Shown here in pieces: positions 8,381 to 15,103 of a DNA stretch of 44,138 nt. The notes under the pieces were generated by a model. The model saw nothing but the letters and a program-made list of their open reading frames with translations, was not told the DNA's origin and searched no databases. Source of the DNA: Escherichia phage vB_EcoS_XY2. Location of the stretch: the sequence record MN927226.1. One strand, 5' to 3'. The translations under genes were made by a program, and so were the position numbers. The stretch's first letter is position 1. Every line of letters starts with the position of its first letter.

Positions 8381-8409
8381 TTGACACCTGAATAGTTAGC
8401 TATTATAGT
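8381..8409 (+). promoter_or_regulatory. sigma70 promoter TTGACA-N17-TATAGT with GAATAG-N4-CTATTA dyad
   Basis: Same architecture as 6092-6120; upstream of CDS 8464. Confidence 0.6.
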
Positions 8410-9149: not shown

Positions 9150-11351
9150 ATGAGTTACCTGTTCTTAGACTTTGAAACATTCTCAGAAGCCGATTTGAAG
9201 AAAGTCGGTTCTTACGCTTACGCCGAACACCCGTCAACCGAAGTGCTTATCTGTACATATGCTTTTGACGACGAACCTGTGCGGGTATGGGATTGCACCG
9301 ACGGCAGCGACATGCCGGGGGATTTACACCGCGCACTGCGCCGCCTTGTTAAGCCCAACAGCCGCATCAAGATGGTGTGGCACAACGGTGGACTTTTCGA
9401 TCGCCTAATCATGAAACACTGCTGGGACTTTGATATTCCGGTAAGTAACACCATTGATACTATGATTTGGGCGTTCCGCCACGCGCTGCCGGGTTCTCTT
9501 GATGCGCTGTGCGAAGTGCTGGGCGTGTCTGCAGACAACGCGAAAGATAAACGCGGCAAGGCTCTGATTAAGCGTTTCTCTAAACCGACGCCGAAGAACT
9601 ACAAAATCCGCCGCTACACCGCAGAAACTCACCCTGACGAGTGGGCGATGTTCATCAGGTACGCCGTGAGCGACATCACTGCGATGCGTGAAGTCTTCCA
9701 TAAGCTGCCGCGTTGGGGTAACTCCGAGTTCGAAGACCGTGTACTGGAACTTGACCAGTTAATCAACGACCGCGGATTTAAGGTTGACGTCGCACTGGCG
9801 GAAGCCGCGATTGAAGCCGTAGAGAAGCACAAGGCACAGTTACAGGAAGAAGCTCAACGTAAATACGGCGGCTCGCTTACCGGTAAAGACTTCCTTCCGA
9901 TTCTGCGTGAACTTTCGCCCGCGCACCGCATACACAATGCACAGAAGTCGACGCTTAACGACCTGTTGGCAGATGATGATTTACCGGACGACGCCCGGAT
10001 GATTATCGAAATGCGCCTCGGGGCCGCGTCAACAGCGTCAACGAAATATACCCCGCTGCTGTTGGGCCGCTCGTCGGACGACCGCCGTCGTGGTTGCTTG
10101 CAGTACGGCGGAGCGAAACGTACTCTGCGATGGGCGGGTAAAGGATTCCAGCCGCAGAACCTGGCGCGAGGTTACTATCACGATGATGAACTGGATAAAG
10201 GCATTTCAGCGTTACTTAAGGGTCGAGCGCATCGCCGTTTTGATGTAGCCAAGCTAACAGCATCTACGGTTCGTAGCTGCATTATCCCGGAAGCGGGGTA
10301 TAAGTTTGTCGTTGCCGATTACTCTAACGTTGAAGGCCGTGGTTTAGCGTGGCTGGCCGGAGAAGAAACCGCGCTCGATACGTTCCGCGCCGGACTGGAT
10401 ATTTACTGCGTAACCGCAGGTAAGATGTTCGGCATGGACCCCGATGACATTAAGAAAAACTTCAAGGAAATCAGACAGATAGGCAAGGCTTGCGAGCTTG
10501 GCCTCGGCTATGAAGGCGGCGTCGGAGCGTTCGTTACGTTCGCCAAAAACTTAGGTCTTGACCTTATTGAGATGGCAAAAACAATGGACGGTACATTCCC
10601 CGACCACATCTGGTCAGCCACCGCGAGAGGATATGAATGGGCGCGCATCCAGGAAGCCAAGCGCCCCCCGCATCCAGGTGAAAAGGACGACAGGCCATCA
10701 TATATTCTTGATAAAAAAGTATGGCGTACTTGTGACGCTATCAAGCGTATGTGGCGCGAGTCACACCCGGAAACAGTAGCGTTCTGGCGCGACCTTAAAG
10801 ATGGAATTTTAGCCGCTGTGCGTAATCCTGGTCGTGAATTTTGGGCGGGGGCACACTTGCGCAGAAATGGGGAAAGGGCTATCCGCATATGGCGTACTGT
10901 AGAATTTGATTCATCCGGTAGGAAGGTTCCGGGTTGGTGGTTGTGTATGGAGTTGCCGTCTGGCCGTATCCTCTCGTATCCGGGAATCGGGGTTAGTGTG
11001 ACAAAGGAAACAGATGAAGACGGACGGGTGAACACGAATGTGCGAATCAAGTATCAAGGTGAAAACCAGTTAACCCGCCAATGGACTACCCTGTACACAC
11101 ACGGCGGCAAAGCCTGCGAAAACATTGTTCAGGCGCTGTGCCGGGATTTACTCGCATATGCGATGATTAAGGTTGAGGATGGCGGGTATCCCATCGTGCT
11201 TTCGGTACACGATGAACTGGTGTGCGAAACTCCAGATACGCCGGAATACAGTGTGGCTGAACTGGAACGATTGATGTGCGCGTTGCCTGAGTGGGCAGAA
11301 GGCTTCCCTCTTGTAGCGGAAGGTAGCGAAATGTACAGATATGCTAAATGA
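9150..11351 (+). CDS. family-A DNA polymerase with N-terminal 3'-5' exonuclease domain
   Basis: N-terminal FLDFETFS exonuclease motif; 733-aa ORF. Confidence 0.8.
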   Translation: MSYLFLDFETFSEADLKKVGSYAYAEHPSTEVLICTYAFDDEPVRVWDCTDGSDMPGDLHRALRRLVKPNSRIKMVWHNGGLFDRLIMKHCWDFDIPVSNTIDTMIWAFRHALPGSLDALCEVLGVSADNAKDKRGKALIKRFSKPTPKNYKIRRYTAETHPDEWAMFIRYAVSDITAMREVFHKLPRWGNSEFEDRVLELDQLINDRGFKVDVALAEAAIEAVEKHKAQLQEEAQRKYGGSLTGKDFLPILRELSPAHRIHNAQKSTLNDLLADDDLPDDARMIIEMRLGAASTASTKYTPLLLGRSSDDRRRGCLQYGGAKRTLRWAGKGFQPQNLARGYYHDDELDKGISALLKGRAHRRFDVAKLTASTVRSCIIPEAGYKFVVADYSNVEGRGLAWLAGEETALDTFRAGLDIYCVTAGKMFGMDPDDIKKNFKEIRQIGKACELGLGYEGGVGAFVTFAKNLGLDLIEMAKTMDGTFPDHIWSATARGYEWARIQEAKRPPHPGEKDDRPSYILDKKVWRTCDAIKRMWRESHPETVAFWRDLKDGILAAVRNPGREFWAGAHLRRNGERAIRIWRTVEFDSSGRKVPGWWLCMELPSGRILSYPGIGVSVTKETDEDGRVNTNVRIKYQGENQLTRQWTTLYTHGGKACENIVQALCRDLLAYAMIKVEDGGYPIVLSVHDELVCETPDTPEYSVAELERLMCALPEWAEGFPLVAEGSEMYRYAK

Positions 11352-11364
11352 TGAGGGGCGATTT

Positions 11365-11862
11365 ATGAGAGATTTAATTAATTGGCATGACCATTTCTAC
11401 TACGAACCTGACACGGGGAAGATACGATGGAAGTATTCCCCGAGACACAGTATAAACGCCGGAGACGAAGCCGGTAGCCCAAGTAAGAGGGGCTACATCT
11501 GTATCGTCGTCAGAGGGGTTAGTTACAGGGCTAATCGCATCGCGTGGGAGATGTATAACAATGACCGTTTAGGGCCTGATGATGAGGTAGACCATATAAA
11601 TCACATCCTGGATGATAATCGTGCATGCAACCTTCGGAAAGTATCCCGTACTGATAATAACCGAAACGCATCTCGCAGAAAAGATAACAAGTCAGGCCTC
11701 ACTGGTGTGCACTGGAACGCACGGGCGGATAAATGGAAAGCAGGGATATTCGTTGACGGTAAACTTATATTCCTGGGCCACCATGACAATATATTTGACG
11801 CGGCTTGTGCCCGGAAATCTGCGATTGTTCGCTACGGCTTTCATGAGAATCACGGAGGTTAG
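11365..11862 (+). CDS. HNH homing endonuclease with AP2-like DNA-binding domain
   Basis: VDHINHILDDNRACNLR HNH motif; GVHWNARADKWKAGIFVDGK AP2-like; GAGGGG RBS before ATG 11365. Confidence 0.7.
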   Translation: MRDLINWHDHFYYEPDTGKIRWKYSPRHSINAGDEAGSPSKRGYICIVVRGVSYRANRIAWEMYNNDRLGPDDEVDHINHILDDNRACNLRKVSRTDNNRNASRRKDNKSGLTGVHWNARADKWKAGIFVDGKLIFLGHHDNIFDAACARKSAIVRYGFHENHGG

Positions 11863-11863
11863 A

Positions 11864-11995
11864 ATGCCAAGTAAACTGATTATCGCGGTACTGGCGGGAT
11901 TTGCCGCCGGTGTCTACTGTCACGAGGGACAATACGGCATGATGGTTGCCATATTGGGCATGTTCATCGCAATTTATATGTGGGTGCTGGAATGA
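11864..11995 (+). CDS. small membrane protein (43 aa)
   Basis: Hand-translated MPSKLIIAVLAGFAAGVYCHEGQYGMMVAILGMFIAIYMWVLE; GGAGG RBS. Confidence 0.45.
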   Translation: MPSKLIIAVLAGFAAGVYCHEGQYGMMVAILGMFIAIYMWVLE

Positions 11996-12081
11996 AAATT
12001 TACTGGTTTTATGAAGAAGACTGCCGAATCTGCCCGCGCTGCGGGATTGAGCATACGAAACGTGAGGGGTGCGTATTATGA
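11992..12081 (+). CDS. tiny Cys-rich peptide (29 aa)
   Basis: MKIYWFYEEDCRICPRCGIEHTKREGCVL; ATGA overlaps on both sides. Confidence 0.35.
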   Translation: MKIYWFYEEDCRICPRCGIEHTKREGCVL

Positions 12082-12230
12082 CAATGTTTGTATTTAGGAC
12101 CATAGTAACCATGCTCGCACTGTTACTCGGTGCGGGAATAGCTGCTATGTTCTGTTACGGCCTGTTCTTTCAGTTTGCCGGTGTTGCCATTCTAGGCTGG
12201 GTTTTCCTTACCTGGATGCTGCGGTCATGA
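12078..12230 (+). CDS. small membrane protein (50 aa)
   Basis: MTMFVFRTIVTMLALLLGAGIAAMFCYGLFFQFAGVAILGWVFLTWMLRS; ATGA overlaps. Confidence 0.45.
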   Translation: MTMFVFRTIVTMLALLLGAGIAAMFCYGLFFQFAGVAILGWVFLTWMLRS

Positions 12231-12559
12231 CTAAAGAGGGCCGCATCCAGAAATACGCAAAAGAGCGATTCGAGGCCATTGGTGGCCTCGTTCGTAAACT
12301 TTCCTACGAAGGACGTTCAGGCGCTCCTGACCTGCTGGCAATTCTACCCGGCGGCATCGTCTGGTTCGTCGAGGTGAAGAAAGACGAAAACACTAAGCCA
12401 GACCCGCACCAGCTACGGGAACACGAGCGTATACGTAAACGTGGCGCAAATGTTTTTGTCGTTGGTTCGATAAAACAGATTGACACCCTAATAGCAGACT
12501 ATTATAGTAAGCACATACCCCAACAATATAAGGAATTTAGAAATGAAACACGAATATGA
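12227..12559 (+). CDS. VRR-NUC domain nuclease
   Basis: GAPDLLAILPGGIVWFVEVKK core read as VRR-NUC. Confidence 0.7.
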   Translation: MTKEGRIQKYAKERFEAIGGLVRKLSYEGRSGAPDLLAILPGGIVWFVEVKKDENTKPDPHQLREHERIRKRGANVFVVGSIKQIDTLIADYYSKHIPQQYKEFRNETRI

Positions 12560-15083: not shown

Positions 15084-15103
15084 AAGGCCCCAAACGGGGC
15101 CTT
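15084..15103. terminator. bidirectional terminator AAGGCCCC-aaac-GGGGCCTT
   Basis: Perfect 8-bp stem between converging plus module and tailspike gene. Confidence 0.7.

What the first reader, a model, noticed from the sequence alone, without database searches (positions are those of the whole stretch)
11864..12230. Chain of three translationally coupled micro-ORFs between the HNH endonuclease and VRR-NUC genes
Three ORFs of 43, 29 and 50 aa fill the gap exactly, each joined to its neighbour by an ATGA stop/start overlap. The first and third are predicted two-helix membrane peptides; the middle one has C-x2-C-x2-C plus a fourth Cys. Such a tightly coupled membrane-peptide set inside a replication module is unusual; it is below the ORF-track length cutoff and easily missed. 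Function unknown.
Basis: seen in the sequence. Interest (0 to 1): 0.4.

Follow-up and report, generated by a model that had tools for sequence, protein, structure and literature searches.

The report
Three small genes before phage nuclease
The three tiny reading frames are real, conserved phage genes already listed in public databases with no known function. They are not a fixed trio: a 29-residue cysteine-rich peptide found in every related phage is flanked by two optional small membrane peptides, at a spot where short genes are often swapped.

Summary
ORFs of 43 aa (o1, 11864-11995), 29 aa (o2, 11992-12081) and 50 aa (o3, 12078-12230) fill the gap between the HNH and VRR-NUC genes. ATGA overlaps join o1/o2, o2/o3 and o3/VRR-NUC. 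The window is a Kagunavirus (Guernseyvirinae), identical here to BASEL phage Bas73.

All three are under purifying selection in their own frame (pN/pS 0.17-0.25, against about 1-2 off frame), as strongly as the neighbouring enzymes.

They are not novel. They match PHROGs 10404, 38225 and 14925, all of unknown function, and are annotated as hypothetical proteins in Bas73/Bas74.

They are not an obligate set. Among 50,697 phage records, o2 occurs in about 443, o1 in about 221 and o3 in about 120. The slot after o2 holds, in different relatives, nothing, o3, other tiny TM peptides, a 64-aa protein or an HNH gene.

Stop/start overlaps are normal in this genome (20 of 74 junctions).

o2 is a Zn-knuckle-like mini-protein (CPRCG) that annotators often miss. 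o1 is predicted as a helical hairpin; the topology of o3 is ambiguous. Function is inferred only: o2 as a core replication or recombination accessory, o1 and o3 as dispensable inner-membrane accessory peptides.

Interest is low to moderate.

The parts
11864..11995 (+). o1: 43-aa hydrophobic peptide MPSKLIIAVLAGFAAGVYCHEGQYGMMVAILGMFIAIYMWVLE (phrog_10404). It is a predicted helical hairpin with a conserved polar turn, Y18-C-H-E-G-Q-Y24.
   Evidence: E 8e-32. In-frame pN/pS is 0.25. AlphaFold2 predicts a hairpin at pLDDT 94. Conservation is shown. It is found in about 221 phage records.
11992..12081 (+). o2: 29-aa charged, Cys-rich peptide MKIYWFYEEDCRICPRCGIEHTKREGCVL (phrog_38225). It has a CPRCG knuckle plus H21 and C27. 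It is the only part present in every Guernseyvirinae relative examined.
   Evidence: E 2.5e-22. pN/pS is 0.17 and pS is 0.40. It is present in 53 of 53 related loci and in about 443 phage records. There are no distant relatives.
12078..12230 (+). o3: 50-aa very hydrophobic peptide MTMFVFRTIVTMLALLLGAGIAAMFCYGLFFQFAGVAILGWVFLTWMLRS (phrog_14925). It is an optional cassette in the slot between o2 and VRR-NUC.
   Evidence: E 2.7e-28. pN/pS is 0.23. AlphaFold2 predicts a single helix, 2-49. It is present in about 120 phage records and in 26 of 54 loci.
11854..11859 (+). Shine-Dalgarno-like GGAGGT, ending 4 nt before the o1 start codon.
   Evidence: Read from the sequence. A GGAG-type motif lies upstream of o1 in relatives.
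12064..12069 (+). Shine-Dalgarno-like GAGGGG inside o2 (codons E25-G26), 8 nt before the o3 start. In relatives without o3, the same motif precedes VRR-NUC or whichever other cassette follows.
12227..12559 (+). VRR-NUC-type nuclease gene (annotated as Holliday junction resolvase in Bas73/74). Its ATG overlaps the o3 stop, and no Shine-Dalgarno motif is visible in the last 15 nt of o3.
   Evidence: phrog_93, E 1.6e-32; a weak VRR_NUC hit at 18.4 bits, below Pfam's 23.8-bit cut-off.
11341..11862 (+). HNH endonuclease gene inserted between the polymerase gene and o1. It is absent from most relatives.
   Evidence: phrog_99, E 1.3e-59. Only 2 of 444 matching records cover this part. Architectures are listed.
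9150..11351 (+). Family-A DNA polymerase gene, the upstream neighbour in the same operon.
   Evidence: with annotation.
8381..8409 (+). Sigma-70-like promoter, TTGACA-17-TATAGT (11 of 12 matches). It is the likely start of the transcript that carries the ssDNA-binding gene, pol, HNH, o1-o2-o3 and VRR-NUC.
   Evidence: This is a consensus match only; the scan found no more sites than in shuffled sequence.
15084..15103 (+). Intrinsic-terminator-like hairpin after the helicase gene, the likely end of the operon.
   Evidence: consensus match only.

Best explanation
The region holds three separate, expressed micro-genes inside the rightward replication/recombination operon of a Kagunavirus. The gene order is ssDNA-binding protein, DNA polymerase, HNH, o1, o2, o3, VRR-NUC, a 63-aa ORF, methyltransferase and helicase.

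Shown:
- Each ORF is kept open and evolves under amino-acid-level purifying selection as strong as that on the neighbouring enzymes.
- The stop/start overlaps are conserved.
- o2 is universal in the subfamily, while o1 and o3 are individually dispensable.
- The position after o2 is a cassette slot. Across relatives it holds nothing, o3, a 23- or 25-aa single-TM peptide, a 64-aa protein, the 64-aa protein plus o3, an HNH gene, or an HNH remnant. Every cassette starts at the same GTATTATGA junction.
- The architectures are scattered over incongruent trees of the two flanks, which indicates frequent recombination.

Inferred mechanism of expression:
- All three are translated from one polycistronic mRNA.
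- o1 and o3 have their own Shine-Dalgarno motifs, GGAGGT and GAGGGG. The second lies inside o2.
- o2 and, in this phage, VRR-NUC have no good Shine-Dalgarno motif. They are most likely started by ribosomes that terminate at the overlapping ATGA.
- If so, o3 also passes ribosomes on to the nuclease gene.

Inferred function:
- o2 is a zinc-knuckle-like mini-protein (CPRCG, H21, C27). I think it acts as a core accessory of the replication or recombination machinery.
- o1 (a helical hairpin) and o3 insert into the host inner membrane as optional accessory peptides. They would act on the host envelope, for example by excluding superinfecting phage or by blocking or modulating a membrane protein, and would not be part of the replisome.
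For: Identity and context:
- The window is 100% identical to Bas73 over 11864-12230.
- 444 Guernseyvirinae records match the region.

Coding status:
- pN/pS is 0.25, 0.17 and 0.23 in frame, against 0.85-2.2 off frame.
- Bootstrap intervals lie below 0.41. The baselines are VRR-NUC 0.16 and the polymerase C-terminus 0.20.
- The antisense 115-aa ORF is broken in relatives.
- There is no Rfam match.

Modularity:
- 13 different architectures were found in 54 loci. The o1/o3 presence table reads both 24, o1 only 23, o3 only 2, neither 5.
- Phage records carrying each ORF number about 443 (o2), 221 (o1) and 120 (o3).
- Cassette boundaries are shared.
- The 43-aa ORF in L038 is the N-terminus of the HNH found in L016.
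- In Jerseyvirus variants without o1, the o1 start and its first 6-7 codons are fused in frame to o2 (MLSKLI-IYYF..EEDC..), a 116-nt indel that keeps o2 translated.

Coupling and signals:
- Junctions and upstream sequences are, and promoter and terminator matches.
- Stop/start overlaps are common across the whole genome.

Structure:
- o1 is predicted as a hairpin.
- The only PDB resemblance for o2 is the CP(R/K)CG knuckle of zinc ribbons, and it is not significant.
Against: - No experiment or homology assigns a function. Pfam, NCBIfam, PADLOC, PDB sequence search, BFVD fold search and an exhaustive HMMER search gave nothing significant.
- Zinc binding by o2 is inferred from a motif alone. C11, C17 and H21 are each substituted in a few metagenomic sequences.
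- AlphaFold2 does not predict a hairpin for o3.
- Termination-reinitiation is inferred from sequence geometry and was not measured.
- The promoter and terminator scans are no richer than shuffled sequence.
- The only transcriptomic study of a Kagunavirus that I found worked with 57 genes and gave no data on these small ORFs.
- An envelope-directed role for o1 and o3 rests on hydrophobicity and patchy distribution only.
Confidence: 0.65

Rival explanations
1. Bridge ORFs. o1 and o3 are kept open only so that ribosomes are handed from gene to gene. Any DNA inserted between the polymerase gene, o2 and VRR-NUC must stay an ORF with overlapping stop and start codons. On this view the peptides themselves have no function.
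For: VRR-NUC has no visible Shine-Dalgarno motif after o3, and o2 has none after o1. Every cassette in the slot, whatever it encodes, keeps the overlaps. Natural deletion of o1 restored the frame so that o2 stays translated. Hydrophobic peptides arise easily from U-rich sequence (general knowledge).
Against: Amino-acid sequences are constrained as strongly as in the neighbouring enzymes: pN/pS is 0.25 and 0.23, with upper bounds of 0.40 and 0.35. Specific motifs are nearly invariant, including the o1 turn YCHEGQY and G12/G16, and the o3 motifs LLLGAGIAA and FCYG. A pure bridge would drift towards pN/pS of about 1.
Confidence: 0.12
2. An obligate three-part membrane-plus-zinc-finger complex. 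o1 and o3 would form a membrane anchor for o2, tethering replication or the nuclease to the inner membrane, comparable to phi29 p16.7.
For: The three genes are adjacent and translationally coupled, and lie between the polymerase and nuclease genes. o1 and o3 are two of only three small, strongly hydrophobic ORFs in the genome. Each peptide has a conserved Cys.
Against: o2 occurs without o1 in about half of relatives and without o3 in about three quarters. Five of 54 loci have o2 alone. o1 and o3 have no soluble domain that could bind DNA or o2. Close relatives with nearly identical polymerase sequence differ in whether they carry o3.
Confidence: 0.08
3. o1 and/or o3 are lysis-timing or membrane-depolarising factors, of the holin, antiholin, pinholin or type-I-toxin kind.
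For: They are small, hairpin-like and very hydrophobic. Such peptides are often toxic when expressed (general knowledge).
Against: The lysis cassette (two holins, endolysin) and the spanin genes lie elsewhere in the genome. These ORFs are co-transcribed with replication genes. There is no charged C-terminal tail and no match to a holin family. They are dispensable in many relatives.
Confidence: 0.1
4. The conservation reflects a nucleic-acid element and not peptides. Candidates are an RNA structure, a promoter, or the target site of a homing endonuclease. This would apply especially to the o2 segment, which is the only part detectable by DNA search in most Salmonella phages.
For: In many records only query positions 150-212, inside o2, match at the DNA level. 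HNH genes insert on both sides of this block. The SD-like GAGGGG motif lies inside o2.
Against: Synonymous sites in o2 vary freely (pS 0.40) while replacement sites do not (pN 0.068), and variable columns by codon position number 11, 9 and 24. There is no Rfam match. The reading frame is intact in all 47 variants.
Confidence: 0.05

Closest known systems
PHROG families phrog_10404 (o1), phrog_38225 (o2) and phrog_14925 (o3), and the GenBank CDS Bas73_0041/0040/0039 and Bas74_0040/0039/0038
   Same: These are the same proteins. The matches are full length, with E-values of 8e-32, 2.5e-22 and 2.7e-28. The window is 100% identical to Bas73 over 11864-12230, and both BASEL genomes annotate all three ORFs as CDSs at these positions.
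   Different: Nothing differs at the sequence level. Neither the PHROG families nor the GenBank records carry a function. The phrog_38225 profile is the 36-aa Jerseyvirus form, in which the o1 start is fused to o2.
Small phage-encoded inner-membrane peptides expressed before lysis, for example T4 Ac (acridine resistance protein, about 50 aa) and T4 Imm (superinfection immunity)
   Same: They share the size class, a helical-hairpin shape, expression outside the lysis cassette and dispensability. A T4-like Ac protein is among the best shape matches to the o1 model (TM-score 0.85/0.78, rmsd 1.1 A).
   Different: The fold match is not significant (E 3.3, 12% identity). There is no sequence homology, and no exclusion or resistance phenotype is known for o1 or o3. 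The roles of T4 Ac and Imm are quoted from general knowledge.
Zinc-ribbon or zinc-knuckle mini-domains with a CPxCG knuckle (RpoM/TFS, ribosomal protein S27ae, Nop10), and the retroviral-type CCHC knuckle C-x2-C-x4-H-x4-C
   Same: o2 has the I-C-P-R-C-G knuckle, identical to those in RpoM and S27ae. It also has a 14-residue C...C...H...C span, as in CCHC knuckles.
   Different: All matches are non-significant (E >= 0.63) and cover only 6-7 residues. o2 has no second CxxC pair. Its spacing is C-x2-C-x3-H-x5-C and not x4/x4. No Pfam zinc-finger model hits. Metal binding was not tested.
Insertion hot spots for free-standing HNH homing endonuclease genes, and 'moron'-type accessory gene slots in phage genomes
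   Same: Both junctions flanking the o1-o2 block carry HNH or endonuclease VII genes in some relatives. One relative keeps an HNH remnant. Gene content at the slot varies between near-identical phages.
   Different: The swapped units here are mostly 23-64-aa ORFs with no promoter or terminator of their own. They are spliced in by stop/start overlap and do not form independent transcription units as classical morons do.
Translational coupling through overlapping ATGA stop/start codons (termination-reinitiation) in bacterial and phage operons
   Same: The geometry is the same. The overlaps are conserved, and the downstream genes o2 and VRR-NUC lack a Shine-Dalgarno motif.
   Different: The coupling is not special to this locus. 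Twenty of 74 junctions in Bas73 have the same overlap. Coupling was not measured here.

Membership tests
phrog_10404 / phrog_38225 / phrog_14925 (uncharacterised phage protein families) | Significant full-length match to the family profile HMM | tested here: met
   E-values are 8e-32 (residues 1-43 of 43), 2.5e-22 (1-28 on profile positions 5-32 of 36) and 2.7e-28 (1-50 of 50).
Real protein-coding gene, as opposed to a chance ORF | Frame-specific purifying selection and an intact frame across relatives | tested here: met
   pN/pS is 0.25, 0.17 and 0.23 in frame, against 0.85-2.2 off frame. There are no internal stops in 42, 47 and 24 distinct variants.
   The genes occur in about 443 (o2), 221 (o1) and 120 (o3) phage records. 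The 54 loci show 13 architectures, including o2 alone, o1-o2 and o2-o3.
Two-TM helical-hairpin membrane peptide | Two hydrophobic helices of roughly 15-20 residues separated by a short polar turn | tested here: met
   This row concerns o1. AlphaFold2 predicts H2-20 and H23-42 at pLDDT 94. Hydrophobic windows lie at 5-19 and 26-42, with the conserved turn HEGQ between them. Membrane insertion itself was not tested.
Two-TM helical-hairpin membrane peptide | Two hydrophobic helices separated by a turn (o3) | tested here: inconclusive
   AlphaFold2 gives one continuous helix, 2-49. Hydropathy shows a strong segment at 8-26 and a borderline one at 33-48, with only K/Q32 between them. No dedicated topology predictor was available.
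Holin (class II, two TM) | Encoded in the lysis cassette next to the endolysin, with a charged C-terminal tail and a match to a holin family | tested here: not met
   The holins and endolysin are annotated about 13 kb away in Bas73. There is no holin hit in PHROGs or Pfam. The C-termini are ..WVLE and ..MLRS.
Zinc ribbon (two CxxC knuckles) | Two CxxC/CPxCG knuckles, or a match to a zinc-ribbon model | tested here: not met
   o2 has one CPRCG knuckle and no second CxxC pair. Pfam gave no hit at E <= 10 for the 32- and 36-aa forms. PDB profile hits cover only the knuckle, at E >= 0.63.
CCHC zinc knuckle (PF00098, C-x2-C-x4-H-x4-C) | Exact ligand spacing and a Pfam match | tested here: not met
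   The o2 spacing is C14-x2-C17-x3-H21-x5-C27. There is no PF00098 hit.
Zinc-binding mini-protein in general | Binds Zn(II) through four Cys/His ligands | not testable with these tools
   C14, C17, H21 and C27 are nearly invariant, while C11 is R or F in 5 of 47 variants. Metal content needs biochemistry.
Ferredoxin-type 4Fe-4S motif (CxxCxxCxxxCP) | Invariant CxxCxxC followed by CP | tested here: not met
   The first Cys is not invariant, the fourth Cys lies 9 residues on and has no Pro after it, and no Pfam hit was found.
Anti-phage defence protein (PADLOC models) | Match to a defence-system HMM | tested here: not met
   There were no hits at E <= 1 for o1, o2, o3, the 64-aa cassette protein or the downstream 63-aa ORF.
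phi29 p16.7-like membrane organiser of replication | A TM anchor plus a soluble DNA-binding domain | tested here: not met
   o1 and o3 are hydrophobic almost from end to end and have no soluble domain. The defining features of p16.7 are quoted from general knowledge.
Translationally coupled genes (termination-reinitiation) | Translation of the downstream gene depends on translation of the upstream ORF | not testable with these tools
   The geometry fits. The (A/G)TGA overlaps are conserved, and no Shine-Dalgarno motif precedes o2 or, after o3, VRR-NUC. Showing dependence needs reporter assays.

The most novel reading that the evidence does not exclude
The polymerase/VRR-NUC junction of Guernseyvirinae may be a dedicated micro-gene exchange site, anchored on a universally required 29-aa zinc-knuckle protein whose last codons carry the ribosome-binding site for whatever follows. 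At this site, unrelated tiny membrane peptides (o1, o3 and the 23- and 25-aa peptides) are gained, lost and swapped as host-specific determinants, for example of superinfection exclusion or counter-defence. One of them, o1, may have been created or removed by a 116-nt indel inside the 5' end of the o2 gene, so that two genes share one ancestral start codon. That would be a clean natural case of micro-gene birth or fission.
Probability: 0.25. Interest if true: 0.5.

Novelty: already known. Interest (0 to 1): 0.22.

Why it matters
As it stands, the finding matters little. The genes are already catalogued hypothetical proteins of a common, well-sampled phage subfamily, and their tight packing is the norm for the genome.

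Three points have some practical value:
- The 29-aa o2 is the one universally conserved gene between the polymerase and the nuclease, yet many deposited annotations omit it. Annotation pipelines and synthetic-genome designs for Kagunavirus and Jerseyvirus chassis phages should keep it. The BASEL paper, PMC11990801, cites CM001 as such a model.
- VRR-NUC translation probably depends on the upstream micro-ORF. Careless deletion of 'hypothetical' genes here could therefore silence the nuclease.
- The natural presence/absence series (o2 alone; o1-o2; o2-o3; o1-o2-o3; other cassettes) is a ready-made set of isogenic-like comparisons for testing what small phage membrane peptides do.

Tried and rejected
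- **o1 and o3 as paralogues.** They share a VAILG stretch and a mid-point Cys-Tyr pair. Profile-profile comparison gave probability 0.7% over 5 columns, so I rejected this.
- **Homology of o3 to the 69-aa two-TM ORF upstream of a distant VRR-NUC (L055).** hhalign probability was 0.1%. Rejected.
- **Searching for o2 in the large protein collection.** A tandem-duplicated o2 query and a 33-aa GTG-extended form searched against 1.84 billion representatives found only the same family, frameshift fusions and one junk repeat protein (P0162).
- **Other database searches.** Pfam, NCBIfam, PADLOC, a PDB profile search and a BFVD fold search gave nothing significant. The weak EMC6 (E 0.0014), PufX, SPC12 and EccE hits are below threshold and look compositional.
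- **An RNA element.** There was no Rfam hit at E <= 1, and synonymous sites vary freely.
- **The 115-aa antisense ORF (11765-12112).** Its open stretch varies from 52 to 97 aa in relatives, with extra stops. I treat it as spurious.
- **Transcriptomic evidence.** The one Kagunavirus RNA-seq paper I found (PMC12645636) classified 57 genes and gave no data on these small ORFs.
- **Literature on the function of these peptides.** The searches and the BASEL paper gave context only.
- **Deciding whether o1 arose by insertion or was lost by deletion.** The trees of the two flanks are incongruent because of recombination, so the direction stays open.
Full report
**What the window is.** The 1.3 kb around the finding matches 444 phage records. 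Almost all are Salmonella and Escherichia siphophages of the subfamily Guernseyvirinae, genera Kagunavirus and Jerseyvirus. Over 11864-12230 the window is 100% identical to BASEL phage Bas73, and the Bas74 match of 99.9% also covers this interval. The annotated sister genomes give the gene order: ssDNA-binding protein, family-A DNA polymerase, an optional endonuclease, three small hypothetical proteins, Holliday-junction resolvase (VRR-NUC), a 63-aa ORF, DNA methyltransferase and helicase. All lie on one strand.

**Checking the observation.** The sequence shows three ORFs:
- o1, 11864-11995, 43 aa.
- o2, 11992-12081, 29 aa.
- o3, 12078-12230, 50 aa.

VRR-NUC starts at 12227. ATGA overlaps join o1/o2, o2/o3 and o3/VRR-NUC. 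The HNH gene stops at 11862, one base before the o1 ATG, so that junction is not an ATGA overlap. o2 reads MKIYWFYEEDCRICPRCGIEHTKREGCVL, with C11, C14, C17 and C27 as described.

**Are they genes?** I fetched 70 loci around VRR-NUC homologues from IMG/VR and three annotated records. Fifty-three of these are Guernseyvirinae-type.
- None of the three ORFs has an internal stop in any locus that carries it.
- Pairwise Nei-Gojobori pN/pS in the proposed frames is 0.25 (o1), 0.17 (o2) and 0.23 (o3). The other two sense frames give 0.85-2.2.
- Codon-bootstrap intervals are 0.15-0.40, 0.08-0.33 and 0.15-0.35. The same loci give 0.16 for VRR-NUC and 0.20 for the polymerase C-terminus.
- The peptides are therefore constrained about as strongly as the enzymes beside them.
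- In o2, synonymous sites vary freely (pS 0.40) and variable columns by codon position number 11, 9 and 24. Its striking DNA-level conservation is thus explained by protein constraint and not by an overlapping nucleic-acid element. Rfam finds nothing.
- The 115-aa antisense ORF is not conserved.

**Already known.** The three proteins are full-length members of phrog_10404, phrog_38225 and phrog_14925, all of unknown function. All three are annotated CDSs in Bas73 and Bas74.

In the 5.8-billion-protein collection, o1 has 67 clusters and o3 has 88. All are at least about 70% identical and sit on contigs up to about 45 kb, so they come from the same phage group. o2 has only 13 clusters, mostly longer 32- or 36-aa forms or frameshift fusions. 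Many GenBank and RefSeq records, K1G among them, have no feature over o2. An exhaustive HMMER search found no distant relatives of o2.

**Not a fixed trio.** In the 54 loci, window included, I found 13 architectures between the polymerase and VRR-NUC genes:

| Architecture | Loci |
|---|---|
| o1-o2-o3 | 15 |
| o1-o2 | 13 |
| o1-o2-64aa-o3 | 5 |
| o2 alone | 5 |
| o1-o2-64aa | 3 |
| o2-o3 | 2 |
| o1-o2-HNH | 2 |
| HNH-o1-o2-o3 (this window's form) | 2 |
| EndoVII-o1-o2-o3 | 2 |
| o1-o2-TM25 | 2 |
| o1-o2-TM23 | 1 |
| o1-o2-43aa | 1 |
| HNH-o1-o2 | 1 |

tblastn against 50,697 phage genomes gives the same picture: o2 in about 443 records, o1 in about 221 and o3 in about 120.

Neighbour-joining trees of the upstream (polymerase) and downstream (VRR-NUC) flanks disagree with each other. 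The architectures are scattered over both trees. For example, L015 (o1-o2) and L021 (o1-o2-o3) have nearly identical polymerase ends. The region is a recombination mosaic, and o3 in particular is gained and lost often.

**Anatomy of the slot.** Every cassette after o2 begins at the same junction..GAGGGGTGCGTATTATGA.. The o2 stop overlaps the next start, and the GAGGGG in o2 codons 25-26 sits 8 nt upstream as a Shine-Dalgarno motif. Where nothing is inserted, the same motif serves VRR-NUC.

After o3, VRR-NUC has no recognisable Shine-Dalgarno motif, and o2 has none after o1. Translation of both is therefore most simply explained by termination-reinitiation at the ATGA overlaps. This step is inferred and was not measured.

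The 43-aa ORF in L038 is the N-terminal remnant of the HNH gene seen in L016 and L025. Homing-endonuclease genes therefore enter this junction and decay there.

In the o1-less Jerseyvirus variants, the single 33-36-aa ORF reads MLSKLI-IYYF(R/H)EEDCRICPRCG... This is the o1 start codon and its first 6-7 codons, fused in frame to o2 from codon 3. It differs from the two-gene form by a 116-nt indel. This fused form is the one modelled by phrog_38225. Whichever way the event went, o2 stayed translated, which fits o2 being the required element and o1 being dispensable.

**How unusual is the coupling?** In Bas73, 20 of 74 same-strand gene junctions are 4-nt overlaps, 43 of 74 overlap in some way, and 31 of 81 genes encode 70 aa or fewer. 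A run of ATGA junctions between small genes is the house style of this genome. What stands out is that o1 and o3 are two of only three small, strongly hydrophobic ORFs in the genome.

**Structure.**
- o1: AlphaFold2, run on 39 sequences, predicts a helical hairpin, H2-20 and H23-42, at pLDDT 94. The most conserved residues are small-xxx-small motifs (G12, A15, G16) and the turn Y18-C-H-E-G-Q-Y24.
- o3: the model is one continuous helix, 2-49, at pLDDT 92. A simple sum on the biological hydrophobicity scale shows a strong segment at 8-26 and a borderline one at 33-48. The scale values were taken from memory. The two-helix claim is therefore open for o3.
- o1 and o3 are not detectably homologous to each other.
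- o2: the only recognisable feature is the I-C-P-R-C-G knuckle typical of zinc ribbons. The PDB profile hits (RpoM, S27ae, Nop10) have E >= 0.63 and cover six or seven residues.
- o2 ligands: C11 is replaced by R or F in 5 of 47 variants. C14 and C27 are invariant, and C17 and H21 nearly so. A C14/C17/H21/C27 ligand set is at least as likely as the four-Cys set. The spacing C-x2-C-x3-H-x5-C resembles the CCHC knuckle but does not match it, and Pfam gives no hit.

**Transcription.** A near-consensus sigma-70-like promoter, TTGACA-17-TATAGT, lies at 8381-8409, upstream of the ssDNA-binding and polymerase genes. An identical pair of hexamers lies at 12480-12508, inside the 3' end of VRR-NUC. A terminator-like hairpin follows the helicase gene at 15084-15103. 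No terminator-like site on the coding strand lies between the polymerase gene and VRR-NUC. These are consensus matches only, and the scan as a whole is not enriched over shuffles. The one Kagunavirus RNA-seq study I found worked with 57 genes and says nothing about the micro-ORFs.

**Best explanation.** The region holds three independent micro-genes of the replication/recombination operon.
- o2 is a core zinc-knuckle-like mini-protein, universal in the subfamily. It probably works with the polymerase, the nuclease or DNA. Its 3' codons double as the ribosome-binding site of the next gene.
- o1 and o3 are optional inner-membrane peptides sitting in a cassette hot spot. They are selected for their sequence, but many natural relatives do without them. 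Their most likely role is at the host envelope (exclusion, or modulation or blocking of a membrane protein) and not in replication.
- In this phage, o3 probably also relays ribosomes to VRR-NUC.

The coding status, modularity and junction anatomy are shown. Coupling, zinc binding, membrane insertion and all functions are inferred.

**Rivals.**
- Pure 'bridge' ORFs: contradicted by pN/pS.
- An obligate membrane-anchored complex: contradicted by the independent distribution and by the lack of soluble domains.
- Lysis or depolarisation factors: the lysis genes lie elsewhere, and there are no family hits.
- A nucleic-acid element: contradicted by the free synonymous variation.

**Verdict.** The coupling is ordinary for this genome, and the 'set' is three separable modules. 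The modest points of interest are a universally conserved 29-aa gene that annotators under-call, and a natural series of micro-gene swaps around it.

Noticed in passing
window 11330-11880: The HNH gene starts at the ATG that overlaps the polymerase stop (ATGCTAAATGA..). In relatives without the insertion, that ATG is the o1 start (ATGCTAAGTAAACTG = MLSKL). After the HNH stop, the sequence ATGCCAAGTAAACTG restores an o1 start with a new GGAGGT Shine-Dalgarno motif. The cassette is therefore flanked by a 7-nt near-repeat, ATGCYAA.
   Followed up: partly
L014:2398-2508, L019:2254-2355, L050:2397-2498: In Jerseyvirus-type relatives without o1, a single 33-36-aa ORF, MLSKLIIYYF(R/H)EEDCRICPRCG.., joins the o1 start and first 6-7 codons in frame to o2. 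It differs from the two-gene form by a 116-nt indel. The direction of the event (birth of o1 by insertion, or loss by deletion) is unresolved.
   Followed up: partly
L038:2361-2492 compared with L016:2008-2505: The 43-aa ORF in the slot of L038 (MCIMKAPSADIKDFLSYGPDTGVFKWVK..) is a truncated remnant of the 165-aa HNH endonuclease that occupies the same slot in L016 and L025.
   Followed up: partly
L029:2424-2501, L053:2424-2501, L044:2430-2501: Two other tiny single-TM ORFs occupy the o3 slot in some relatives: a 25-aa peptide (MTMLTTIMIIVAVFLGVAVLSKVTD) and a 23-aa peptide (MITIIAVLVALLLGAAIFSRIIG). Both keep stop/start overlaps at each end. The 25-aa peptide shares MTM.. and F(L/V)GVAVL with o3 and could be an internally deleted o3.
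   Followed up: no
L005:2161-2355, L034:2310-2504 and similar loci: A 63- or 64-aa soluble cassette protein (phrog_25645, unknown function) carries a C-x2-C..H motif and gives a weak A2L zinc-ribbon hit (E 0.0047, below cut-off). It occurs between o2 and o3, or between o2 and VRR-NUC.
   Followed up: no
L055:2295-2504, L056:2295-2504: In a distant, GC-rich phage group (VRR-NUC 44% identical), an unrelated 69-aa hydrophobic ORF lies immediately upstream of the VRR-NUC gene, also with an ATGA overlap. It shows no homology to o3 (hhalign probability 0.1%). This may be coincidence, or small membrane ORFs may recur next to this nuclease.
   Followed up: partly
window 8381-8409 and 12480-12508: Two sigma-70-like promoter matches share identical hexamers and spacing (TTGACA-17-TATAGT, 11 of 12 matches). 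The second lies inside the 3' end of VRR-NUC, just upstream of the 63-aa ORF at 12543.
   Followed up: no
proteins P0149, P0151-P0153, P0155, P0159, P0160 (o1-o2 fusions); P0076, P0156, P0083 (o2-o3 fusions): Several public protein clusters are frameshift fusions. The frame leaves o1 at different positions and runs into o2, or runs from o2 into o3. They may be assembly indels or natural knock-outs of o1 that keep o2 translated. This was not resolved.
   Followed up: no
L074:9911-10042 (Bas73_0017): The only other small, strongly hydrophobic ORF in the sister genome is a 43-aa single-TM peptide inside the head-tail connector gene block.
   Followed up: no
L062:777-1118, L067:2432-2773, L071:2432-2773: Distant VRR-NUC homologues have an in-frame N-terminal extension, MVYHCFEVCNGLNFETCG.., rich in Cys and His. 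If it is real, a metal-binding module is fused to the nuclease there, whereas o2 is a separate peptide here.
   Followed up: no
L001-L053, flanks of the slot: Neighbour-joining trees of the last 600 nt of the polymerase gene and of the 700 nt from VRR-NUC onward are strongly incongruent. Recombination breakpoints therefore lie at or near the micro-gene block.
   Followed up: partly
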